DNA from: Candidatus Gastranaerophilales bacterium
GTDB taxonomy: Bacteria; Cyanobacteriota; Vampirovibrionia; Gastranaerophilales; CAJFVJ01
Length of the DNA stretch: 64,000 nt
Direction: 5' to 3'
Assembly (NCBI GenBank): GCA_944323485.1
Contig: CALUSR010000003.1
Span: 201,466-265,465, forward strand
Below are positions 9,042 through 16,488 of this stretch, piece after piece (position 1 is the first letter of the stretch; every line of letters begins with the position of its first letter). The notes beneath the pieces are model-generated. The model saw nothing but the letters and a program-made list of their open reading frames with translations, did no database searches and had not been told where the DNA came from. The translations under genes were made by a program, and so were the position numbers.

Positions 9042-10589
9042 TCAATATAATATGGCGGGTGTCGCCAAGCGGTTAAGGCCTCGGATTGTGGTTCCGATAT
9101 TCGTGGGTTCGAATCCCATCATCCGCCCCATATTAAACTTATTATCAGTCAATCGGTCTAAGAACTCGAATATGACTGATTTTTTATGTGTTCGAAAATT
9201 ACTCAAATCAAAACTTGCTCCCTCTGGATAAATCAGTTTTTGTAAACGCTGTCTAAATTCAAGCCCACCACTTTCCCATAGGCTTTTAATATTATTCAGA
9301 GCAAAGCAACAACTGTCTAAGAATTGATTAATACTACTTTCAGGGATTTCCATGCCTGCTAATATCGTCTTTTTATCCAAAATAGCCTGCTCTATATCAT
9401 CATTAACAAGCTTATAATCTCTTTCGGACAGTTTATCATCTATGTACTTTTTAGTCAGCCTTAATTTGCTTTCATTAAGTTCTTTGAGTTCATTTTCAAG
9501 TTGCTTTTTCAGGTTGGTCTGCTCTTTTATTTCTTCATTGTAAACATCTTCCAGTATGCTTCTAAACAAGGTTAAAAGCTCTTTTTTAGGTTTAATCACT
9601 TCAAGATGTTTTTTAAACTCCTCTTCTAATCTATCCTTTCTAATCCTGAACTTTAGCATACAGTCTTTATTGTGACAGTGATAATATGCATATTTCTGAT
9701 TTCTGCCTTTACTGTAACTTGCTGTTAAAGGTTTGTTGCAATAAGGACACTTAATATACTGTCTTAAAGGGAATTCTTCTCTATTTCGTTTGTAGCCGGT
9801 AATTAATGGCTTTTTACCGTCTAATATTGCCTGAACTTTATAAAAAGTATCTTCATCGATAAGCGGTTCGAAAATTCCCCTGACTGGTTCATCAAGCCAG
9901 CTATAAGTAAGCATTCCGATATAAACTTTATTTCTTAAAATCCTGCCTACTTTGTTTTTATTGAGGTCTTTCATGCCTGCTTGTCTTAACTTTTCCATAA
10001 CTTCTATTTGAGAATATAAACCAGTAGCAAATAATTCAAACGCCATTTTGATATACTTTGCATTTTCAGGACAAGGGATTAAAGATTTTTCTTTATCATT
10101 TTTATATCCGACAGGGGCTAAATTTACCCATCTGCCTTTATTAACAGCCCCTCTCATTCCTAGTTTAGTTCTTTCACATATTTTTCGCCATTCATAACGG
10201 CTTGTTCCTTGTGTTATCCATCTTAAAAACTCTGCTTCGGGTGTATCTTCATTATTTTCTGTTACAGATAAGGGCTTAATATTGGTTCGTTCAAAAAACT
10301 GTCCTAAGACATGATAGTCTGATTGCTCACCTCTTGATAGTCTGTCCCATTTCCAAAATATCAAAACATTAATATCTTTTTTATGTTCGGCACAAAACTC
10401 AAACATTCTTTTTAATTCTGTACGGATTAAGTCTTTAGCACTTTCGCCTTTTTCTCTAAAAATCTTAACAACTTCATAACCGTTCTTTACGGCAAATTCC
10501 ATACATTCCTGTTCTTGTTGACCTAAACTATAACCATGTTTAGCTTGTTCTTCCGTTGATACTCGACAGTATATTACAGCTTTTTGCAT
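9042..10589 (-). CDS. large serine recombinase (integrase)
   Basis: Resolvase catalytic N-domain (AVIYCRVSTEEQ), a recombinase domain, a zinc ribbon (CPYCNKPLTASYSKGRNQKYAYYHCHNKDC) and a coiled coil. The last ~29 codons run antisense through the tRNA-His gene. Confidence 0.85.
   Translation of the reverse strand: MQKAVIYCRVSTEEQAKHGYSLGQQEQECMEFAVKNGYEVVKIFREKGESAKDLIRTELKRMFEFCAEHKKDINVLIFWKWDRLSRGEQSDYHVLGQFFERTNIKPLSVTENNEDTPEAEFLRWITQGTSRYEWRKICERTKLGMRGAVNKGRWVNLAPVGYKNDKEKSLIPCPENAKYIKMAFELFATGLYSQIEVMEKLRQAGMKDLNKNKVGRILRNKVYIGMLTYSWLDEPVRGIFEPLIDEDTFYKVQAILDGKKPLITGYKRNREEFPLRQYIKCPYCNKPLTASYSKGRNQKYAYYHCHNKDCMLKFRIRKDRLEEEFKKHLEVIKPKKELLTLFRSILEDVYNEEIKEQTNLKKQLENELKELNESKLRLTKKYIDDKLSERDYKLVNDDIEQAILDKKTILAGMEIPESSINQFLDSCCFALNNIKSLWESGGLEFRQRLQKLIYPEGASFDLSNFRTHKKSVIFEFLDRLTDNKFNMGRMMGFEPTNIGTTIRGLNRLATPAILY
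9054..9130 (+). tRNA. tRNA-His (anticodon GTG)
   Basis: Folded by hand into a cloverleaf: acceptor GCGGGTG/CATCCGC, anticodon arm TCGGA-TTGTGGT-TCCGA, T arm GTGGG-TTCGAAT-CCCAT. An extra G-1 pairs with discriminator C73, the His identity hallmark. CCA is encoded. Confidence 0.9.
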
Positions 10590-10726
10590 AATATTACCCC
10601 CTTGTAATTTTTGACTAAAACCTTAGCCATTTGATACAGCAACTCTTGAATTTCTTTGATTTCTTGGTCTGTCATTTCTTCCTTTGTTTTCCCTAAAATT
10701 TTTCGGCAAGCTTCGATACTAAGCAT
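10574..10726 (-). CDS. small hypothetical ORF (50 aa) upstream of and overlapping the recombinase start
   Basis: Hand translation gives MLSIEACRKILGKTKEEMTDQEIKEIQELLYQMAKVLVKNYKGVILCKKL, ending 16 nt inside the recombinase gene. No recognisable domain. Confidence 0.35.
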   Translation of the reverse strand: MLSIEACRKILGKTKEEMTDQEIKEIQELLYQMAKVLVKNYKGVILCKKL

Positions 10727-10826
10727 TTTTCAATCCTTATTGCTTTGTATTGAAGCTCAACTTGCCTCATTGCCACTTCAAATATTTAGTTATAACTTTA
10801 AATAAGCTCTATGCTTCCATAGCCAC

Positions 10827-11636
10827 TTACTTAATTTTGATAGTTTCTTCTTTTGTTAAAAATACAGAATTGCCATTTGTGAATTTTACTTCTATATTTT
10901 CATATTCTGAATTTTTTACTAATTCAACAAGTTCTTCCCTTGTTAGCTTATTGTCTTTGCATTTGGGTTTTATGATGTAATCAGCTTTTTTCTTTCTAAT
11001 TAAAATCTCAATATAATTTTCGTTTTCAATGGTATCAAGAATAAGAACACGTCTTAAAGCTGCTGGTATGTCGCAAAATGGATTGACTTTATTATTTTTA
11101 TCTAATTCTAATTCCTTTTTAAAATATTTAAGCATTCCTTCTTTGTAATACTGTCCGATAGGTATTATTAAAAGACTTTCACTTAGAAGATTTTCTTGTT
11201 TAAAATCAGATGATACCTCTCTATGAAAATTAACAAGTGAATTGTTCCCCTTGCCTATTCCATAACCGCCCCTTTGACTTACAGCCAAATAATAGTAATC
11301 TTGTTCATCGCTATGAAATATGCCTGTAAGCAAAGCTGGTTTTATATTAGTAACCTGTTGCAAAATGAAATTAATAACTTCATCAGAATATAAGTTTTTC
11401 TTCATATCTCGAATGATTTTAAGACAAGTAATGTCAAAAACAGAGAATTTTCGCCATCCATTTGTATTATCCCTTTTGCAGCTTTTTAAAAATCCTCTTT
11501 TATCCCAATCATTTAATTGACGATATGAGACTTCTTCTAAATCTTTAATTGTAAAAACTTGCCTTTCATCTGTTTTAGACTGGTTGTCTAATTGCTCTGC
11601 AACTCTTAATAATCCCTTTTTTTCTGCTGCTTCCAT
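10827..11636 (-). CDS. hypothetical protein with an N-terminal MerR-like HTH
   Basis: FTIKDLEEVSYRQLNDWDKRGFL resembles the MerR-type HTH-wing. The rest is unrecognised. Confidence 0.5.
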   Translation of the reverse strand: MEAAEKKGLLRVAEQLDNQSKTDERQVFTIKDLEEVSYRQLNDWDKRGFLKSCKRDNTNGWRKFSVFDITCLKIIRDMKKNLYSDEVINFILQQVTNIKPALLTGIFHSDEQDYYYLAVSQRGGYGIGKGNNSLVNFHREVSSDFKQENLLSESLLIIPIGQYYKEGMLKYFKKELELDKNNKVNPFCDIPAALRRVLILDTIENENYIEILIRKKKADYIIKPKCKDNKLTREELVELVKNSEYENIEVKFTNGNSVFLTKEETIKIK

Positions 11637-11725
11637 GTTTAATTCCCCATGTTAAATTACACATCTATGTATATTATAACATAATAAATTATACATGCAA
11701 GTATAAATATCTTTCTAAATTGTTT

Positions 11726-12718
11726 TTATAGATTTGTATTAGAAAACATTATTACAGTGTTAAGTCCAGTATTTGAAGTTAATGTGAGAGTCCCATATAA
11801 ACATATTGGTATTTCTCTATTATTTTTAAACCTTCTATCAGGACCGCCAGATTTATTTATATAACGCCAAGTTTTTCCTATAACATTAGCATCACTTGGT
11901 ATGGTCTCTTCTTCTACAAATTGTGTGGTAGAGGCGTTTGTTTGAATATCACAGTAATCAATTGCTATGATTTTACAATCTTGAATAACAAATAATTTAT
12001 CAGGTAAAAATATTATAGTTTCTTGTGGGGTGATAAAAGATACGGCACTTGTTTCAAATTTAAAAGGAAACACAGATTTTCTACTTGTAGTACAATTAAT
12101 CCTCTTTATTGTGCTAGTTGCCCCTGCTGAATATTTGGTATCTATAACCCTATTTGAACTTAAAATACGCCAAGTTTTTGCACTTTGGGCTACTTTTACC
12201 ATTGGTTGCATTTTATTTTCAATAACAGCCCGCAAATCATCATCTATGTTATATTCTAAATCTATTGTTCCAAAAATTCTAACGTATCCAAATAGACATA
12301 TAAAAAGGAATAAAGGGATAAGAAAAAAATGATTAAATAACATCAATATAAAAGATATTATCATACCAATAGTGGCTATTTGGTTAATTTTTAAACTTTT
12401 CCTAGCTAATGATAATATTTCGTCGCAACTTTCACTATTGCTCAAATTTGACATCTCATTTATGAATTCTTTTTCACCATAACAATTATTGTTATTTTGT
12501 ATGTGTGTATATTCTTTTTCGTTTTCTTTATTATTGCTAGTTTCTTCAACATATGATAATCCAGTACCTGGAATAGAAGCTGTTTTTCTAATTGTCCCTT
12601 TTGCAGTTTTCGTAATTCTATAACCTTTTACACCCCAACTATAGCCTATTCCAGATTTACTAAGATTTATTCTGAAACCACCTCCAATATTAATACTTTT
12701 TCTATATCTAAATCCCAT
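11726..12718 (-). CDS. DUF4236-like membrane protein
   Basis: The N-terminus MGFRYRKSINIGGGFRINLSKSGIGYSWGVKGYRITKTAKG matches my memory of the DUF4236 signature. A central TM hairpin is present. Confidence 0.55.
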   Translation of the reverse strand: MGFRYRKSINIGGGFRINLSKSGIGYSWGVKGYRITKTAKGTIRKTASIPGTGLSYVEETSNNKENEKEYTHIQNNNNCYGEKEFINEMSNLSNSESCDEILSLARKSLKINQIATIGMIISFILMLFNHFFLIPLFLFICLFGYVRIFGTIDLEYNIDDDLRAVIENKMQPMVKVAQSAKTWRILSSNRVIDTKYSAGATSTIKRINCTTSRKSVFPFKFETSAVSFITPQETIIFLPDKLFVIQDCKIIAIDYCDIQTNASTTQFVEEETIPSDANVIGKTWRYINKSGGPDRRFKNNREIPICLYGTLTLTSNTGLNTVIMFSNTNL

Positions 12719-12795
12719 TTGTAACTCCTTGCTTAAATAAATTTAGCACAAAAATAGCTTAAATTTATATTTTTATAGATACAAAAAAATGGTAG

Positions 12796-13212
12796 CTATA
12801 TTTGTTTTAATATATTATTTATAATTCTTTTGGTTTCCTGCTTGTTGATTGGTGATAATTCACAGACCTGTTGAAATGGAATTTGCCCTAAAGTATCACG
12901 TATAAATGTTAAATACCTTACTAATTCACTAAGAGTTGTTTTTTCTGCATAGGCTTTGTATGTAGTGAATAAAATAATGCTTTCAAGATAATTTAATTTT
13001 GTAGTGTTTTTTATACCTTGTTCCTTTAAAATGACTATTAAATCATCGCTTGGTTTACTTTGTAGTATTTGAGTTAAAACCTTATTGAAATTTGCCTTTT
13101 CTTTTCTTGCTACCCCTGATTTAATCCCTGCTTTTCTTGCAAGTTCCGCTCTTTGTTTCGGAGTTCTTTCGGAGTTCGATTTTAGATTTTTTAAACTTTT
13201 GTTATTTATCAT
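12796..13212 (-). CDS. hypothetical protein (element cargo)
   Basis: ORF with a basic N-terminus (RTPKQRAELARKAGIKSGVARKEK). An inverted repeat ATTACGCA-N11-TGCGTAAT lies just upstream at about 13233..13260. Confidence 0.45.
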   Translation of the reverse strand: MINNKSLKNLKSNSERTPKQRAELARKAGIKSGVARKEKANFNKVLTQILQSKPSDDLIVILKEQGIKNTTKLNYLESIILFTTYKAYAEKTTLSELVRYLTFIRDTLGQIPFQQVCELSPINKQETKRIINNILKQI

Positions 13213-13292
13213 CAGTAAATACTCATAAAACAGGATTACGCACTATTTATACATGCGTAATTTATGAAACTCTTTTACCTCATTTATTAACT

Positions 13293-13323
13293 GGTTCGAA
13301 TTAAAATCTAATACCCGCCCCAT
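13293..13323 (+). repeat. degenerate tRNA-His 3'-half mimic and right-hand att core
   Basis: GGTTCGAAT (identical to the tRNA T-loop 9106..9114), then 13 nt, then CCGCCCCAT (identical to 9123..9131). Confidence 0.55.
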
Positions 13324-13330
13324 TTATTAA

Positions 13331-13352
13331 AGCTCCCTAAAGGGAGTTTTTT
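13331..13352 (+). terminator. rho-independent terminator (likely the original tRNA-His terminator)
   Basis: agCTCCC-taaa-GGGAG followed by TTTTTT. Confidence 0.7.
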
Positions 13353-13409
13353 AGTGCGTAAATAATAAGAATATATTTTTTAAATTTTAAGAATACGTCC
13401 ATATTTGTC

Positions 13410-14027
13410 ATGATGACCAATCATAATATACTAAAAGGAGACACAAATATGGATGATATTAAATTATTAACAAAAGGAAGAGAACACGACGTCTATTCAA
13501 TTCACTATTCAAGCAACGGTTTTTACGACGGAGGAGCACTTGCCCCCGCAATATGCTGTATATCCCTCGTAAACTTTTCAACTCATGAACTGCACTCTTT
13601 TGCTTTGCATAACTATATCTTTACTGAAAAATGCATTGTTGATGCCCAAAAAAGACTCCTTTGTGAATTTTCGGAATTTATAAAAAACTTAAACAATCCA
13701 ATTTATATCCACTGGAACATGTATTCTCTTGAATATGGGTTTAAATCACTCATAACAAGCTGCGAAAACTTCGGAATCTATGACTTATCGTTTAATGAAG
13801 CTGATTCTTATAATCTGGCTGATAAAATAGAAGGATCTCTTTTTGGAGCATTCGAAGACTATGGTTATCTTTCACCGGCGTTCTTATCAGGGAAAGAAGA
13901 ACTTGCCTGCTTCGATAAACGCAGTTACAACCTTGTAAAATGTTCAACAGACGCCAAAGCAATCGGCATAATGGCATTATTTAAAAAACTTATGAAAAAT
14001 GAAATTACTCCTGAGATTTTATATTAA
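13410..14027 (+). CDS. hypothetical protein
   Basis: 205-aa ORF with no motif I recognise. Confidence 0.45.
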   Translation: MMTNHNILKGDTNMDDIKLLTKGREHDVYSIHYSSNGFYDGGALAPAICCISLVNFSTHELHSFALHNYIFTEKCIVDAQKRLLCEFSEFIKNLNNPIYIHWNMYSLEYGFKSLITSCENFGIYDLSFNEADSYNLADKIEGSLFGAFEDYGYLSPAFLSGKEELACFDKRSYNLVKCSTDAKAIGIMALFKKLMKNEITPEILY

Positions 14028-14042
14028 TACTAAAAACATATA

Positions 14043-14051
14043 TGCTATAAT
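14043..14051 (+). promoter_or_regulatory. extended -10 promoter element upstream of the cas12a remnant
   Basis: TGCTATAAT lies 39 nt upstream of the ATG at 14090. An RBS AGGAAGGTGG sits directly before the ATG. Confidence 0.4.
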
Positions 14052-14089
14052 CATACAAATTCAATATATAAAGCAGGAAGGTGGGAAAT

Positions 14090-14203
14090 ATGGAAAAATT
14101 TTATGACAAATTTAACAATCTGTTCAGTATTTCAAAGACTCTGAGATTTGAACTTAAACCTGCTTTGAGGGAGTTTCCTGCGTTTGGTTTAATACCTATT
14201 TAA
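14090..14203 (+). pseudogene. cas12a: cas12a (cpf1) N-terminal remnant: 24 conserved codons, then unrelated sequence
   Basis: MEKFYDKFNNLFSISKTLRFELKP matches the hallmark Cas12a N-terminus (compare ..YSLSKTLRFELIPQGKT in FnCas12a). Similarity ends after KP and the ORF stops at 37 aa. Confidence 0.65.
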
Positions 14204-14222
14204 AATTTCTACTATTGTAGAT
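14187..14222 (+). CRISPR. solitary type V-A (Cas12a) CRISPR repeat
   Basis: GTTTAATACCTATTTAAAATTTCTACTATTGTAGAT. The 3' 19 nt, AATTTCTACT-ATT-GTAGAT, is the conserved Cas12a crRNA handle with the TCTAC/GTAGA stem. I found no second copy in the window by eye. Confidence 0.7.
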
Positions 14223-14636
14223 ATTTCTGAATTTATCATATTTGCAAAATATTCTATGCCAGATTTCCGCATTGGAATCGGGCGGAATATCAGTCCAGGA
14301 AGAAGTATAAGGCAGAGCAACGAGAGGATATTTTTTTAGATCATAAAAGTTCGATGACAAAACCCTAAATTGTCTTTTTTTACAATTAATCTCATATTTT
14401 GATAGCATATACCATACTTTTTTCCCGTCTATGTCCTCTAATGTTCCATCATTTAGGATTTTGAGCCAAAATATTGCCCCGCTGTCAATATACTTGATAC
14501 TTGATTTGTCGATATATGTTTTATGTCCGAATTCTTCCCAGGTTGCCGCCATTGCAAGCGGTGTAAAAATTGCAAACATGAGTAAAAACAGCAATATTTT
14601 TTTCATAGAAAAACCTTTATTGATATTTATTGTCAT
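14196..14636 (-). CDS. hypothetical secreted protein
   Basis: Signal peptide MKKILLFLLMFAIFTPLAMA. The last 8 codons overlap the Cas12a-type repeat. Confidence 0.55.
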   Translation of the reverse strand: MTININKGFSMKKILLFLLMFAIFTPLAMAATWEEFGHKTYIDKSSIKYIDSGAIFWLKILNDGTLEDIDGKKVWYMLSKYEINCKKRQFRVLSSNFYDLKKYPLVALPYTSSWTDIPPDSNAEIWHRIFCKYDKFRNIYNSRNFK

Positions 14637-15238
14637 TTCTCTCTTCTCGCTAAACGAACTAAATATAGAACTGGCGTATCAAATGCGTTTATTTCTTTCT
14701 GTTTTATTTGTGTTGTCAGAAGATATCCGTCGGTTAGTTTCTTATAAGCTGTTCTGTTCCCGACATCAAATGTTGAATCTTTTTTCCCTTTTGGCAGCTG
14801 CCGGGATGTAACTTCTTTAGTGTTAGTGTTTAAAGTTAATTCTGTAATAATATAATCGGTTTCTCTTTGAGCTGTTATTATTCCGTTTTTTATGCTTGTT
14901 ATGTCATATAAATAATGATCTATAAACCAAACAGCAAATTCTTCTACATAAGTTTCTTCGCAATAACCTGATTTAATAAAACATCTTATGTTTGACAGTC
15001 TGGGGTATCTGTATTGTCCGCCTTCAGTGTCGTGTATATCCCAGCTGCCTTTTGTTTCAATATATTCGTTATCAAAATAAAAATGAAAAGAATCAAGAAG
15101 CGGTGCCGCTTTTTTAAGATAATTGTTTTCTCTAACCATTTCATAGAAAAACAGACAAACAACAAAAACAATTGAGATAGTTGTTATTATCAATTTTTTT
15201 ATTAGTTTTTTTGAGAAAAATTCTTTAATCTTGTTCAT
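14633..15238 (-). CDS. hypothetical membrane-anchored protein
   Basis: The preferred start MNKIKEFFSKK at 15238 lies just after the stop of the upstream repressor gene. One N-terminal TM helix. It overlaps the downstream ORF by 4 nt. Confidence 0.5.
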   Translation of the reverse strand: MNKIKEFFSKKLIKKLIITTISIVFVVCLFFYEMVRENNYLKKAAPLLDSFHFYFDNEYIETKGSWDIHDTEGGQYRYPRLSNIRCFIKSGYCEETYVEEFAVWFIDHYLYDITSIKNGIITAQRETDYIITELTLNTNTKEVTSRQLPKGKKDSTFDVGNRTAYKKLTDGYLLTTQIKQKEINAFDTPVLYLVRLARREK

Positions 15239-15239
15239 T

Positions 15240-16181
15240 TTACCTCGACACTCTTCCCCACCAGCGCACCTCGCCGATGATTTCAAAATCGTAGTTGATT
15301 TCTTTTGACAGATCAACATCAAAACTTTTATACTTCCGGTTGTCAGATATCACAACAACGGTTGAGGGAGGCACAAACTGAAGCCTCTTTGCATAAAGTT
15401 CCCCGTTGATTCTCACGCAATAGATTTTCCCGTCGTGGATTTCTGTTTTTGAGCGGTCAATCAAAAGACTATCACCGCCTTCTATTGTCGGCGACATACT
15501 GTCACCTGATGCAAAAATCATTTCGGTCTTTTTGATATTCAAGTTCAAATCTTCGGCAAGCTGGCGGCTTACCGGATATATTCCGGTCCGGTTTTGTTCA
15601 AAAACCGTCACACCATAACCCATAGAAGCTTTGACATCTCCGAGTACGGGAATTTCAAAACATTCCGGGCTTGAAGGATTTGAAGAAGAGAACATTTCTC
15701 CCTCGCCTGTTAGGAGCCAGTGAGCATTTATCCCAAATTGTGTAATAATGAATTCTAATAATTCAAGAGGCGGTTTTCTTTCACCACGTTCATATTTTAC
15801 ATAAGTAGTTTGTAAAATATTTAGCTGGCGTGCAAATGCGCTGGCATTGGGATTTATTTGTTCTCTTATTTTTTTTAATCTTTCTGAAATTAAATCATTC
15901 ATTTTTTTATTCCAAAATGTGTTGACATCAGGGCTATCTGCCACAGGCTGAACAGACGAAGAAAACATTTCGCCTTCACCTGTTAGGAGCCAGTTCATAT
16001 TTACTCCGTATTTGTAAACTAATTGTTCCAGCAATTCAAGAGGCGGTTTTCTCTCCCCACGTTCATAACTCTGATATGTCCTATATTGTATCCCTAATTT
16101 TTCTGCAAAATCAGACACTTTAAACCCGAGATATTTCCTTAATATTATTAAATTTTGAGGTAATTGTAACATATTGCACAT
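15240..16181 (-). CDS. CI/LexA-like repressor: two XRE-type HTH domains plus an S24 peptidase domain
   Basis: Tandem HTH modules both end ..ERGERKPPLELLE...NWLLTGEGEMFSSS. The C-terminal region GDSMSPTIEGGDSLLID...YAKRL carries the Ser/Lys dyad. The ATG at 16181 is preferred over the TTG at 16196. Confidence 0.8.
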   Translation of the reverse strand: MCNMLQLPQNLIILRKYLGFKVSDFAEKLGIQYRTYQSYERGERKPPLELLEQLVYKYGVNMNWLLTGEGEMFSSSVQPVADSPDVNTFWNKKMNDLISERLKKIREQINPNASAFARQLNILQTTYVKYERGERKPPLELLEFIITQFGINAHWLLTGEGEMFSSSNPSSPECFEIPVLGDVKASMGYGVTVFEQNRTGIYPVSRQLAEDLNLNIKKTEMIFASGDSMSPTIEGGDSLLIDRSKTEIHDGKIYCVRINGELYAKRLQFVPPSTVVVISDNRKYKSFDVDLSKEINYDFEIIGEVRWWGRVSR

Positions 16182-16189
16182 AAAATTCC

Positions 16190-16218
16190 TTGACAATTAT
16201 GAACAAATAGTGTATAGT
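16190..16218 (+). promoter_or_regulatory. near-consensus sigma70-type promoter for the divergent small gene
   Basis: TTGACA, a 17-nt spacer, then TATAGT. It overlaps the 5' end of the repressor gene region. Confidence 0.5.
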
Positions 16219-16254
16219 AATAATACAGATTACACAAGTTAGTGAGAATAACTT

Positions 16255-16413
16255 ATGAACGTAACACTACATATTAGATTAAAAACGAAAGAGCTGGCTG
16301 AGAAAGTAAAGCAGATGAGAGAACAGGGATATACGATTCCCGTTCTTGTGAGAAACTTTCTGTCAGATTTTCCGTTAGAGAAGAAAAAGGAGAAGAGCTC
16401 GCTCGATTGCTAA
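16255..16413 (+). CDS. small RHH-like (Cro/Arc-like) protein, about 52 aa, coordinates approximate
   Basis: MNVTLHIRLKTKELAEKVKQMREQGYTIPVLVRNFL has a strand-helix-helix pattern. The gene is divergent from the CI-like repressor and below the ORF-track cutoff. Confidence 0.4.
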   Translation: MNVTLHIRLKTKELAEKVKQMREQGYTIPVLVRNFLSDFPLEKKKEKSSLDC

Positions 16414-16488
16414 TCTTCCCCGTAATTAAATCTCATAAAAAACATTTTTACACAAAAAATCACAATGCGCAAGACAACAAAAGCAATA

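What the first reader, a model, noticed from the sequence alone, without database searches (positions are those of the whole stretch)
14040..14260. Remnant of a type V-A CRISPR-Cas locus: 24 cas12a codons fused to a single canonical Cas12a repeat, still behind an intact promoter
**What the sequence shows**
- The short ORF 14090..14203 starts MEKFYDKFNNLFSISKTLRFELKP. The SKTLRFEL(I/K)P block is the hallmark N-terminus of Cas12a/Cpf1 proteins.
- Similarity stops after codon 24.
- 25 nt later lies GTTTAATACCTATTTAAAATTTCTACTATTGTAGAT (14187..14222). Its last 19 nt, AATTTCTACT-ATT-GTAGAT, are the conserved V-A crRNA handle with the TCTAC/GTAGA stem.
- I see no cas12a body, no cas4/cas1/cas2 and no second repeat anywhere in the window.
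- The extended -10 (TGCTATAAT) and a strong RBS are intact. The lone repeat should therefore be transcribed in the sense orientation.
- That transcript would be handle plus pseudo-spacer, and it reads antisense into the 3' end of the convergent gene 14196..14636, whose last 8 codons are encoded by the repeat.

**Two readings**
- (a) It is the scar of a deletion that removed an entire V-A locus.
- (b) It is a retained or co-opted solitary repeat, acting as a crRNA-like decoy or regulator. RNA anti-CRISPRs built from solitary repeat units have been reported for several CRISPR types, from memory.

The mobile-DNA neighbourhood next to tRNA-His fits both readings.
Basis: partly seen in the sequence, partly recalled or inferred. 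Interest (0 to 1): 0.85.

Follow-up and report, generated by a model that had tools for sequence, protein, structure and literature searches.

The report
Deletion scar of a Cas12a locus
This is the leftover of a Cas12a CRISPR immune locus: sister strains of the same gut bacterium (Candidatus Adamsella) still carry it whole at this spot, while here only the promoter, 24 codons, one spacer and one repeat survive, fused to phage-derived DNA, and nothing suggests the leftover has a job.

Summary
**Observation: confirmed.**
- Window 14090-14160 is the first 71 nt of cas12a.
- 14187-14222 is a perfect 36-nt type V-A repeat, the only one in the window.
- The cas12a promoter and ribosome-binding site are intact.

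**Reading (a), a deletion scar: shown directly.**
- Conspecific contigs (Ca. Adamsella, gut Melainabacteria) carry the same upstream gene and promoter.
- They then have full cas12a-cas4-cas1-cas2, a leader and an array of 5-30 copies of the identical repeat.
- They match the window at 99.6% up to cas12a nt 71.

**New details.**
- The 26 nt between stub and repeat are spacer-sized, so one spacer-repeat unit survives.
- The DNA after the repeat is a phage-derived cassette.
- Its homology to the natural copy of the adhesin-like gene stops exactly at the repeat's end.
- In that natural copy, a TTTA Cas12a PAM sits just before this point.
- The array-end junction of an intact-locus strain shows the same feature inside a phage gene.
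- This looks like a spacer-protospacer joint.
- A second, independent deletion allele exists in the population.
- The tRNA-His islet is an unrelated insertion.

**Reading (b), a co-opted RNA decoy: no support.**

Ordinary CRISPR loss, unusually well documented. Interest is low to moderate.

The parts
13410..14027 (+). 205-aa gene of unknown function, the conserved left neighbour of cas12a in this species (context, left anchor of the deletion alleles)
   Evidence: The same protein sits directly upstream of intact cas12a in L008, L011 and (as a 192-aa variant) L010 and L097-L104. It is present in all three allele types. No Pfam or PADLOC hit.
14024..14051 (+). Retained cas12a promoter: TTAATA, 16 nt, TG-extended TATAAT
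   Evidence: Promoter scan, 10/12 matches with TG. The sequence is identical in strains with intact cas12a. Its activity is inferred, not measured.
14090..14160 (+). cas12a stub: nucleotides 1-71 (codons 1-23 plus two bases of codon 24)
   Evidence: One mismatch over the 71 nt to L008 cas12a, then an abrupt loss of homology. tblastn gives 23/24 aa, E=1.8e-8. In-register PDB Cas12a hits.
14090..14203 (+). Chimeric 37-codon ORF: cas12a codons 1-24, then read-through of the spacer, with its stop codon inside the repeat
   Evidence: No longer protein with this sequence exists in the 5.8-billion-protein set; only the 37-aa cluster itself is found. Disrupted by a 38-nt deletion in L018.
14161..14186 (+). 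Spacer-sized segment TGCTTTGAGGGAGTTTCCTGCGTTTG (26 nt; 27-28 nt if the preceding C or CC belonged to it): the one surviving spacer
   Evidence: Its length matches the spacers of this species: 26-29 nt in 47 of 48 distinct spacers. 50% GC. Unrelated to cas12a or to any fetched locus. Not found among 99 distinct spacers of the sampled arrays, nor in IMG/VR.
14187..14222 (+). Single type V-A CRISPR repeat. The crRNA handle is 14204-14222: stem 14208-14212 / 14217-14221, loop 14213-14216
   Evidence: Identical to every non-terminal repeat of the intact arrays in L008, L010, L043, L063 and L097-L104. The hairpin is predicted in the RNA fold. Its 3' 23-mer is shared with V-A arrays of many other taxa.
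14223..14249 (+). First 27 nt after the repeat (ATTTCTGAATTTATCATATTTGCAAAA): inferred former spacer, equivalent to a protospacer, through which phage-type DNA was joined to the array
   Evidence: Homology to the natural adhesin-gene copy (L087, L107) ends exactly at 14223. In that copy, TTTA directly precedes this sequence.
14196..14636 (-). Adhesin_E-like lipoprotein gene whose native stop codon was lost; its last 8 codons (IYNSRNFK) and its stop are read from the repeat
   Evidence: Pfam Adhesin_E, E=4.8e-10, residues 36-132. The natural 128/138-aa forms end at ...DKFRN*. They lie at another locus, next to GH77 and a prophage.
14223..16450 (.). Phage-derived cassette between the repeat and the WYL gene: adhesin-like gene, 201-aa gene, S24/CI-type repressor, 52-aa cro-position gene (right end approximate)
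   Evidence: The same module order occurs in a prophage (L016) and a phage contig (L095). Allelic cassettes follow the arrays of intact-locus strains. The right end is shared with L008 (trailer type T1).
16489..17451 (-). HTH-WYL-WCX regulator gene, the conserved right anchor of the locus
   Evidence: Pfam WYL/WCX. PADLOC 'CAS-associated WYL', E=2e-24. In allele 2 it lies about 50 nt beyond the degenerate terminal repeat.

Best explanation
**What it is.** It is an in-situ evolutionary scar of a type V-A CRISPR-Cas locus, with no demonstrable function today.

**Intact form.** In Candidatus Adamsella strains the intact locus reads: 205-aa gene, cas12a, cas4, cas1, cas2, leader, array, phage-derived cassette, WYL regulator gene.

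**Two events made the window allele.**
- Step 1 (inferred, moderately supported). The far end of the array became joined to phage-type DNA through a spacer.
  - The array held, or acquired, a spacer taken from the 3' end of a phage adhesin-like gene, next to a TTTA PAM.
  - Recombination or break repair between that spacer and its protospacer then fused a repeat directly to the phage DNA.
  - This removed the PAM, and with it the gene's stop codon, which overlapped the PAM.
- Step 2 (the deletion is shown; its mechanism is unknown). A deletion of roughly 5.5 kb or more removed cas12a from nucleotide 72, cas4, cas1, cas2, the leader and all of the array except the last spacer-repeat unit. Microhomology at the joint is 0-2 nt.

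**Likely driver (inferred from established knowledge).** Conflict between Cas12a and resident or incoming temperate phages, because spacers of this species match its own prophages.

**What remains.**
- The cas12a promoter and ribosome-binding site.
- A 37-codon chimeric ORF.
- One spacer and one repeat.

**Predicted behaviour now.** The promoter probably still drives a short transcript that runs antisense into the adhesin-like gene. With no Cas12a at this locus to bind or process it, it is most likely inert.
For: **An intact locus sits at the same site in conspecific strains**
- Shown in L008, L010-L013, L042-L044, L063 and L097-L104.
- The window is 99.6% identical to L008 over 846 nt, up to cas12a nt 71, and then diverges.
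- The repeat is identical to the arrays' repeat, and the intervening 26 nt match the spacer length.
- No other cas sequence occurs in the window.

**Step 1, the spacer-mediated junction**
- The 1,067-nt [201-aa gene + adhesin gene] module also lies at a second locus, with a natural stop codon.
- It is 98.3% identical to the window, and the homology ends exactly at 14223.
- There the sequence reads ...TTTA|ATTTCTGAATTT.
- Independently, the junction after the array of L008 and related strains maps inside a phage DUF4942 gene, right after TTTA. This holds in the phage contig L095 and in L010, L043 and L063.
- The background frequency of TTTV before a random position is 2.8-3.6%. Two of two testable junctions therefore give p of about 1e-3.
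- Spacers of this species match its phages: L043 spacers 7 and 9 match L016 and L095.
- Spacer-target recombination is a described phenomenon (Varble et al. 2019, as summarised in PMC8616872).

**Loss of cas is recurrent in this population**
- A second allele (L002, L004, L007, L029) keeps only a 27-nt spacer plus 13 nt of the terminal repeat.
- Of 22 contigs of the 205-aa lineage, about 12 carry the window's allele, 9 carry allele 2 and 1 is intact.
- All 23 contigs of the 192-aa lineage are intact.
- Deletion of cas genes as an escape from self-targeting, and large deletions by end-joining at 1-9 bp of microhomology, are documented (PMC6990116).

**Decay argues against function**
- L018 has a frameshifting 38-nt deletion in the stub.
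- L037 has a deletion inside the adhesin gene.
- L033 has a truncated 205-aa gene.
Against: **Step 1**
- The free spacer ATTTCTGAATTT... has not been seen in any sampled array.
- A direct ancestor, an intact locus with the adhesin gene downstream, was not found.
- The two protospacers found for genuine spacers carry CTTG and TTCA rather than TTTV. The PAM of this particular Cas12a is therefore assumed from the family rule.

**Step 2**
- No mechanism explains why both independent cas deletions end within 0-2 nt of a repeat-spacer boundary. Chance is about 5% for each.

**Function**
- It cannot be excluded from sequence alone.
- The promoter and the repeat are invariant in all six distinct sequence versions seen (haplotypes). 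About 2 variable sites would be expected in those 98 nt, so this is not significant.
- The rest of the genome was not available to check for a second cas12a.
Confidence: 0.85

Rival explanations
1. The solitary repeat is retained as an RNA decoy or anti-CRISPR (Racr-like). The repeat, transcribed from the strong cas12a promoter, would bind Cas12a made elsewhere, either from a second locus or from incoming DNA, and block it or load it with a harmless guide.
For: **Fits the Racr picture**
- It is a perfect repeat with an intact hairpin, downstream of an intact promoter.
- V-A solitary repeats from phages do inhibit Cas12a (RacrVA1-3; PMC10651486).
- The repeat is unchanged in all six remnant haplotypes, including the one with a deletion in the stub.
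Against: **Does not fit**
- It arose by deletion in situ on the chromosome, not on a phage or plasmid.
- The promoter is simply the old cas12a promoter, about 136 nt upstream of the repeat.
- The repeat overlaps two ORFs rather than lying in an intergenic region.
- No Cas12a is encoded in the window, and the locus that encoded it in sister strains is the one deleted here.
- The second deletion allele keeps only 13 nt of a repeat and is about as common, so a full repeat is not needed for strain success.
- Invariance of the repeat is not statistically above expectation.
- The exact repeat is absent from IMG/VR.
Confidence: 0.06
2. The remnant now serves the neighbouring gene. Either the read-through transcript acts as an antisense regulator of the adhesin-like gene, or the 8-residue C-terminal extension encoded by the repeat matters for that protein.
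For: **Points in favour**
- The arrangement is convergent, with no terminator-like site between the genes.
- The fused 136/146-aa form was recorded on roughly 100 contigs.
- It is kept across several variants of the cassette.
Against: **Points against**
- The extension lies outside the Pfam domain, which covers residues 36-132.
- The natural form without it is also common (P0034, P0036, P0037).
- The adhesin gene itself is broken in L037.
- Nothing here measures expression.
Confidence: 0.05
3. The exact positions of the junctions reflect site-specific breakage at repeat-spacer boundaries rather than spacer-protospacer recombination plus chance. Candidate causes are aberrant Cas1-Cas2 integration or disintegration, and cleavage at the base of the repeat hairpin.
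For: **Junctions at repeat or spacer boundaries**
- All lie within 0-2 nt of a repeat or spacer boundary.
- cas12a stub | spacer in the window.
- 205-aa gene | spacer in allele 2 (L002).
- Repeat | phage DNA in the window and in L008.
- Phage DNA | truncated repeat in L010.

**Chemistry**
- Cas1-Cas2 acts at exactly these phosphodiester bonds (established knowledge of spacer integration).
- The repeat hairpin ends 1 nt before the boundary.
Against: **Points against**
- Breakage alone does not predict the TTTA found before the source sequence at the two testable junctions. A spacer origin does.
- The two remaining coincidences have a joint chance of about 0.3-1.5%, and they were noticed after the fact.
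- No direct evidence of integrase involvement is possible from sequence.
Confidence: 0.12
4. The arrangement is an assembly artefact: a chimeric join of the cas12a 5' end, one array unit and an unrelated contig.
For: **Points in favour**
- Arrays are known to collapse in short-read assemblies. L012 shows a leader followed by a single repeat, which is probably such a collapse.
Against: **Points against**
- Identical junctions occur in at least 17 retrieved loci assembled from many different samples by different assemblers.
- Some of these contigs are several hundred kb long.
- Strain-level SNPs and secondary deletions are superimposed on the same junctions.
Confidence: 0.01

Closest known systems
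Degenerate or lost CRISPR-Cas loci (cas operon deletion leaving orphan repeats), e.g. the loss of the cas cassette in Lactobacillus acidophilus NCFM attributed to self-targeting (reviewed in PMC6990116)
   Same: - The cas genes are removed by a large deletion with little or no microhomology.
- A fragment of the array is left behind.
- The locus is polymorphic within the species.
- Temperate-phage conflict is a plausible driver.
   Different: - Both breakpoints are resolved to the nucleotide, because intact sister alleles exist.
- The remnant keeps the effector's promoter, start codon and 24 codons, plus exactly one spacer-repeat unit.
- Two independent deletions in the same population both end at a spacer boundary.
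Recombination between CRISPR spacers and their phage targets (Varble et al. 2019, Nat Microbiol; summarised in PMC8616872)
   Same: - The junction lies exactly at the 3' end of a repeat.
- It continues collinearly into phage DNA from a PAM-adjacent position.
   Different: - The known case is experimental, in staphylococci, and yields transducing phage-CRISPR hybrids.
- Here it is inferred from natural chromosomal junctions in a V-A array of a gut Melainabacterium.
- The partner may be a neighbouring prophage remnant, giving a deletion, or a second chromosomal copy.
- The free spacer has not been observed.
RNA anti-CRISPRs / solitary repeat units (Racrs; Camara-Wilpert et al. 2023, PMC10651486), including RacrVA1-3
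   Same: - A single repeat with the V-A handle.
- No second repeat within 100 bp.
- A promoter upstream.
- The matching subtype exists in the species.
   Different: - It lies on the chromosome at the former cas locus, not on a virus or plasmid.
- It was produced by deletion.
- It overlaps coding sequence on both strands.
- No partner Cas12a is known in this genome.
- Inhibition has not been tested.
crRNA-like regulatory RNAs and mini-arrays (crlRNA/CreR-type; bioRxiv 10.1101/2024.12.27.630466 and 10.1101/2024.10.29.618823)
   Same: - A repeat-derived RNA element sits close to the cas promoter.
   Different: - Those elements need a functional effector and a partially matching target near a promoter.
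- They usually have a pair of, often degenerate, repeats.
- Here the effector is deleted and there is only one, perfect, repeat.

Membership tests
Type V-A CRISPR-Cas locus (functional) | Full-length Cas12a effector with RuvC and Nuc domains | tested here: not met
   Only residues 1-24 are encoded, at 14090-14161. There is no other Cas12a similarity in the window. Sister strains encode 1221-1222 aa with the REC1, PI-like, RuvC and NUC Pfam domains.
Type V-A CRISPR-Cas locus (functional) | Adaptation genes cas4, cas1 and cas2 | tested here: not met
   tblastn with the L008 proteins finds nothing below E=0.5.
Type V-A CRISPR-Cas locus (functional) | Array of at least two repeats separated by spacers, preceded by a leader | tested here: not met
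   There is one repeat only. The leader sequence of L008 (16140-16271) is absent from the window.
Type V-A CRISPR-Cas locus (functional) | Repeat carrying the conserved 3' handle AAUUUCUACU-loop-GUAGAU | tested here: met
   Exact match at 14204-14222. The repeat is identical to that of the conspecific arrays. Its 3' 23-mer is shared with V-A arrays in 37 genome loci.
RNA anti-CRISPR (Racr) / solitary repeat unit | Repeat-like sequence with no other full or partial repeat within 100 bp | tested here: met
   No second handle-like or 5'-repeat-like sequence lies nearby.
RNA anti-CRISPR (Racr) / solitary repeat unit | Encoded in an intergenic region of a virus, prophage or plasmid | tested here: not met
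   The left flank is chromosomal and continuous with the cas12a 5' end of sister strains. The repeat overlaps the ends of two ORFs. The exact repeat is absent from IMG/VR. The criteria are taken from PMC10651486.
RNA anti-CRISPR (Racr) / solitary repeat unit | Expressed as a small RNA from its own promoter immediately upstream | not testable with these tools
   A consensus promoter lies at 14024-14051, about 136 nt upstream, but it is the inherited cas12a promoter. No expression data are available.
RNA anti-CRISPR (Racr) / solitary repeat unit | Binds the cognate Cas protein and inhibits interference | not testable with these tools
   This needs an interference assay. No cognate Cas12a is encoded in the window.
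Spacer-protospacer recombination junction | Novel joint exactly at the 3' end of a repeat, continuing collinearly into the target DNA | tested here: met
   Homology to the natural gene copy runs from 14223 for 406-1,067 nt, with zero ambiguity at the boundary.
Spacer-protospacer recombination junction | A PAM (TTTV for Cas12a) directly 5' of the joint in the source DNA | tested here: met
   TTTA in L087 and L107 for the window's junction. TTTA in L095, L010, L043 and L063 for the L008-type junction. The background rate is about 3%. The PAM of this particular Cas12a is assumed from the family rule.
Spacer-protospacer recombination junction | The same sequence present as an ordinary spacer in related arrays | tested here: not met
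   It is not among the 99 distinct spacers of the 12 sampled arrays. Sampling is small.
crRNA-like regulatory mini-array (crlRNA/CreR) | Functional effector present, and a guide partially matching a promoter target | tested here: not met
   The effector is deleted. The 'guide' after the repeat matches only the sequence it is part of.

The most novel reading that the evidence does not exclude
**The reading**
- The V-A array of this species would act as a recombination hub with nucleotide-precise breakpoints.
- Spacers would capture or delete neighbouring phage DNA by pairing with PAM-adjacent protospacers.
- A site-specific process at repeat-spacer boundaries, either Cas1-Cas2 misfiring or hairpin cleavage, would excise the whole cas operon. 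That process would leave exactly one spacer-repeat unit.

**What would follow**
- The surviving unit would still sit behind the cas12a promoter.
- It could then work in trans as a chromosomal Racr-like decoy.
- This would matter when Cas12a re-enters by gene transfer from intact sister strains.
Probability: 0.1. Interest if true: 0.7.

Novelty: new member of a known kind. Interest (0 to 1): 0.35.

Why it matters
**Value as a documented case**
- It is a clean natural example of how a class 2 CRISPR-Cas locus is lost.
- Intact alleles and two different deleted alleles coexist in one gut species.
- Both breakpoints can therefore be read to the base.

**Wider points**
- Solitary repeats found by sequence scans can be plain deletion scars rather than anti-CRISPR RNAs. 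This is a useful caution for Racr/SRU surveys.
- The PAM-adjacent array-phage junctions are field evidence that spacers can act as recombination handles between arrays and phage DNA.
- Such recombination has been described experimentally in staphylococci.

**Limits**
- None of this changes what is known about Cas12a itself.

Tried and rejected
**Searches that found nothing**
- IMG/VR scans for the 36-nt repeat, the 26-nt spacer, the allele-2 spacer and the adhesin 3' end gave no hits.
- Protein-guided scans of IMG/VR with the adhesin-like and 201-aa proteins gave no relatives.
- The JGI metagenome scan for the adhesin 3' end returned only a contig already in hand.
- Rfam gave nothing beyond tRNA-His. 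A sub-threshold CRISPR-DR26 hit (16.6 bits against a threshold of 39) is not usable.
- The peptide search of the large protein set returned only the 37-aa cluster. This excludes a full-length unrelated gene starting with this sequence, but adds nothing else.

**Ideas rejected**
- The 26 nt might continue a divergent cas12a allele. Rejected: there is no similarity to any cas12a, and the translation (ALREFPAFG) does not fit the conserved P-x-GKT motif.
- The repeat might come from a phage-borne solitary repeat that integrated into the array. Rejected: the prophage and phage contigs L016, L038, L087-L096 and L105-L110 carry no repeat-like sequence, and the PAM evidence favours a spacer origin.
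- The tRNA-His serine-recombinase islet might have caused the deletion. Rejected: the same remnant exists without the islet.

**Checks that failed**
- The PAM test on the right-hand junction of the L010-type cassette (phage DNA | truncated repeat) found no TTTV at 26-29 nt.
- Self-targeting spacers against the chromosome were sought among 99 spacers. None was found apart from the two phage matches.
Full report
**1.

Window 14090-14203 encodes MEKFYDKFNNLFSISKTLRFELKPALREFPAFGLIPI.
- Against all PDB chains, 23 of the 24 hits are Cas12a/Cpf1. Each aligns the peptide's first ~25 residues with the protein's own N-terminus.
- The 36-nt sequence at 14187-14222 ends in the V-A handle AATTTCTACTATTGTAGAT.
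- It is the only exact handle in the 64 kb.
- A TG-extended -10 promoter lies at 14024-14051, followed by a strong ribosome-binding site.
- The convergent ORF 14196-14636 ends inside the repeat.

**2. Where it comes from.**

I looked up the neighbouring 205-aa protein by exact sequence in public assemblies. This returned long contigs of the same organism.
- One of them (L001) is 100% identical to the window over 13 kb.
- A cluster member is annotated Candidatus Adamsella sp., a gut member of the Melainabacteria group.
- The species representative of Ca. Adamsella avium carries a full V-A locus that is 91-96% identical in DNA to the intact loci found here.

**3. The intact allele.**

In L008 the same 205-aa gene and the same intergenic promoter are followed by:
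- cas12a (1222 aa, all Cas12a Pfam domains);
- cas4, cas1 and cas2;
- a 130-nt leader;
- ten copies of exactly the window's repeat, separated by 27-28-nt spacers.

Other strains have 5-30 repeats.

The window matches L008 at 99.6% from 13315 to 14160, which is cas12a nucleotide 71. Homology then stops dead.
- L008 continues AATAGGAAAAAC... (P-I-G-K-T).
- The window continues TGCTTTGAGGGAGTTTCCTGCGTTTG and then the repeat.
- tblastn with the L008 Cas proteins finds only Cas12a residues 1-24 in the window.

**4. What exactly survives.**

The 26 nt between stub and repeat have the length of a spacer.
- 47 of 48 distinct spacers are 26-29 nt long.
- The segment is 50% GC and resembles nothing else fetched.

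The remnant is therefore: promoter, cas12a nt 1-71, one spacer, one repeat. I could not find this spacer in the 12 arrays sampled (99 distinct spacers), nor its target in IMG/VR.

**5. The right-hand junction.**

The gene that ends in the repeat is an Adhesin_E-like lipoprotein gene.
- Its cluster contains forms of 128 and 138 aa that stop at ...DKFRN*. That is eight codons before the window's form.
- Those natural forms lie at a different chromosomal site, next to a GH77 gene and a prophage end.
- The 1,067-nt module [201-aa gene + adhesin gene] is 98.3% identical between the two sites. The homology ends exactly at window 14223, the first base after the repeat.
- In the natural copy, written in the window's + orientation, the sequence reads ...CATTATTTTA|ATTTCTGAATTT....
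- A TTTA therefore directly precedes the joint. TTTA is the canonical Cas12a PAM (TTTV, a family rule from established knowledge).
- The PAM overlaps the gene's TAA stop codon, which explains why the stop was lost and the gene now reads into the repeat.

**6. A second junction behaves the same way.**

In L008, L097, L098 and L101-L103 the last repeat is followed by ATGATATAATGTCGG....
- Homologous sequence occurs in a phage contig (L095: structural genes, DUF4942 gene, 69-aa gene, moron genes, S24 repressor, a gene in the cro position, YqaJ, SSB).
- It also occurs, inverted, in the cassettes of L010, L043 and L063.
- In all of these, homology begins at the first base after the repeat and is preceded by TTTA, in the middle of the DUF4942 gene.
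- TTTV precedes only 2.8-3.6% of positions in these sequences. Two of two testable junctions give roughly p = 1e-3.

I conclude that the array-distal junctions are spacer-protospacer joints.
- Recombination between spacers and their phage targets is known from staphylococci (Varble et al. 2019, as cited in PMC8616872).
- Repair of a self-inflicted Cas12a cut in a neighbouring prophage remnant, using the spacer copy as homology, would give the same product.
- Integration of an untrimmed prespacer cannot be excluded.
- Two other junction types (L010-type and L043/L104-type) could not be tested, because no source DNA was found.

**7. The cassette.**

Between the repeat and the WYL regulator gene lie the adhesin-like gene, a 201-aa gene, an S24/CI-type repressor and a 52-aa gene in the cro position.
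- The same module order is seen in a prophage elsewhere (L016, with ERF and a tyrosine integrase) and in the phage contig L095.
- Intact-locus strains carry allelic versions of this cassette after their arrays, with the same right end.
- The species' spacers hit these phages. L043 spacer 7 matches L016 with 2 mismatches and upstream CTTG. L043 spacer 9 matches L095 with 1 mismatch and upstream TTCA.
- These imperfect PAMs fit escape variants. They also mean the PAM of this enzyme is not established here.

**8. A second, independent loss.**

L002, L004, L007 and L029 have a different allele:
- the stop codon of the 205-aa gene;
- then TTGCGTCCCGGCTTCCCCAATTGTGTC (27 nt);
- then the first 13 nt of a repeat;
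- then a short trailer and the WYL gene.

Here even the cas12a promoter is gone and there is no phage cassette.

Allele counts:
- Among 22 long contigs that share the window's exact 205-aa protein, about 12 carry the window's allele, 9 carry this second allele and 1 is intact. This count assumes that the 'similar places not shown' are of the same type as the one shown.
- All 23 contigs with the 192-aa variant of the upstream protein are intact.

CRISPR-Cas is thus polymorphic and lineage-structured in this species.

**9. An unexplained regularity.**

Both cas deletions end within 0-2 nt of the 5' end of a spacer.
- The window joint is ...AAACC|TGCTTT.
- The allele-2 joint is ...TTAAT|TTGCGT, where AT could also be the last two bases of the repeat.
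- In both cases the spacer kept is the last one before non-array DNA.
- By chance this is about 5% each, and I noticed it after the fact.
- Candidate causes are breakage at the base of the repeat hairpin, a Cas1-Cas2 nick at the repeat-spacer bond, or prior collapse of the array to one spacer.
- None can be tested here. I record it as unexplained.

**10. Is the remnant used?**

Seventeen remnant loci fall into six haplotypes.
- The promoter and repeat (98 nt) have no variable site.
- The flanking genes vary at about 2 sites per 100 nt, so about two would be expected. This is not significant.
- The stub has two SNPs, and in L018 a 38-nt frameshifting deletion.
- L037 has lost part of the adhesin gene, and L033 part of the 205-aa gene.
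- The region is therefore decaying.
- No longer protein starts with this peptide.

The Racr criteria of Camara-Wilpert et al. are an intergenic position on a virus or plasmid, an own promoter, and a matching host system (PMC10651486).
- The position criterion is not met.
- The activity criterion cannot be tested.

I put a retained decoy function at about 6% and a role for the neighbouring gene at about 5%.

**11. The tRNA-His neighbourhood.**

The serine-recombinase islet (9138-13314) is flanked by CCGCCCCAT, the 3' end of tRNA-His.
- It is present in some remnant strains and absent in others.
- It is therefore unrelated to the CRISPR scar.

**12. Verdict.**

This is a real and correctly recognised remnant of a V-A locus. 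It is explained by deletion, with a well-supported extra twist at its phage-side junction.
- CRISPR loss by deletion and orphan repeats are known (PMC6990116).
- It is therefore a new member of a known kind.
- Interest is low to moderate. Its main value is as a base-resolved natural example and as a caution for surveys of solitary repeats.

Noticed in passing
window 9042-13314 (islet 9138-13314; tRNA-His 9055-9130): A 4.2-kb islet is inserted at the 3' end of tRNA-His and flanked by CCGCCCCAT. It carries a large serine recombinase (whose C-terminal codons overlap the tRNA gene), a 50-aa ORF, a MerR-like protein, a DUF4236 protein and a 138-aa protein. It is present or absent among otherwise near-identical strains. 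In L005 and L027 it also carries a HaeIII-type restriction-modification pair. In L038 the recombinase (492 aa there) adjoins phage genes including a lysozyme, so the islet may be a phage remnant or satellite.
   Followed up: partly
window 16489-18786: An HTH-WYL-WCX regulator (PADLOC 'CAS-associated WYL', E=2e-24) lies convergent to the former array, about 50 nt past the terminal repeat in the cassette-free allele. It is followed by a 420-aa protein with no family hit. In L004, L015 and L037 the 420-aa gene is replaced by a different four-gene set (with faint WG_beta_rep hits). This looks like a variable defence-type slot under a BrxR/CapW-like regulator.
   Followed up: partly
window 13410-14027: A 205-aa protein (192-aa in another lineage) always sits directly upstream of cas12a in this species and is kept in both deletion alleles. 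It has no Pfam or PADLOC hit. Whether it is linked to the CRISPR system is unknown.
   Followed up: no
window 15682-16067 (within ORF 15240-16196): The S24/CI-type repressor here is 313-318 aa with two HTH domains, because of a 273-nt tandem duplication (copies 78-88% identical). Other strains have 220-222-aa single-HTH versions.
   Followed up: no
L010 19371-19393, L043 and L012 equivalents: Intact-locus strains of one type carry a truncated repeat (first 23 nt, with A12G) about 2.6 kb beyond the array, just before the WYL gene. The phage-derived cassette is therefore bracketed by a full repeat and a partial repeat, like a giant spacer. Homology to phage L095 ends exactly at the 5' end of that partial repeat, but no PAM is found at spacer distance.
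   Followed up: partly
L050, L054, L059, L068 (genome-contig hits): Single copies of V-A repeats with the same 3' 23-mer, and no array nearby in the 8-kb loci held, occur in Lentimicrobiaceae, Bacteroidota and Gammaproteobacteria MAGs. In L050 and L054 a partial ACTATTGTAGA motif lies about 40-50 nt upstream. They could be scars, mini-arrays or Racr-like units.
   Followed up: no
L043 spacers 7 and 9 versus L016 15531 and L095 4811: The only two spacer-to-phage matches found have non-canonical upstream motifs (CTTG, TTCA) and 1-2 mismatches. This is consistent with phage escape variants coexisting with the spacers.
   Followed up: no
L087-L094 and L105-L110 (GH77 locus): The [148-aa or 201-aa gene + adhesin-like gene] module also sits beside a GH77 gene. 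It lies next to HicAB and P2-like tail genes, preceded by a 56-nt piece of the S24-repressor 3' end. These moron modules therefore move between at least two chromosomal sites.
   Followed up: partly
L012 6384-6419: One contig with an intact cas operon shows the leader followed by a single repeat and then the downstream cassette. This is probably array collapse in a short-read assembly, but a genuinely spacer-less array is not excluded.
   Followed up: no
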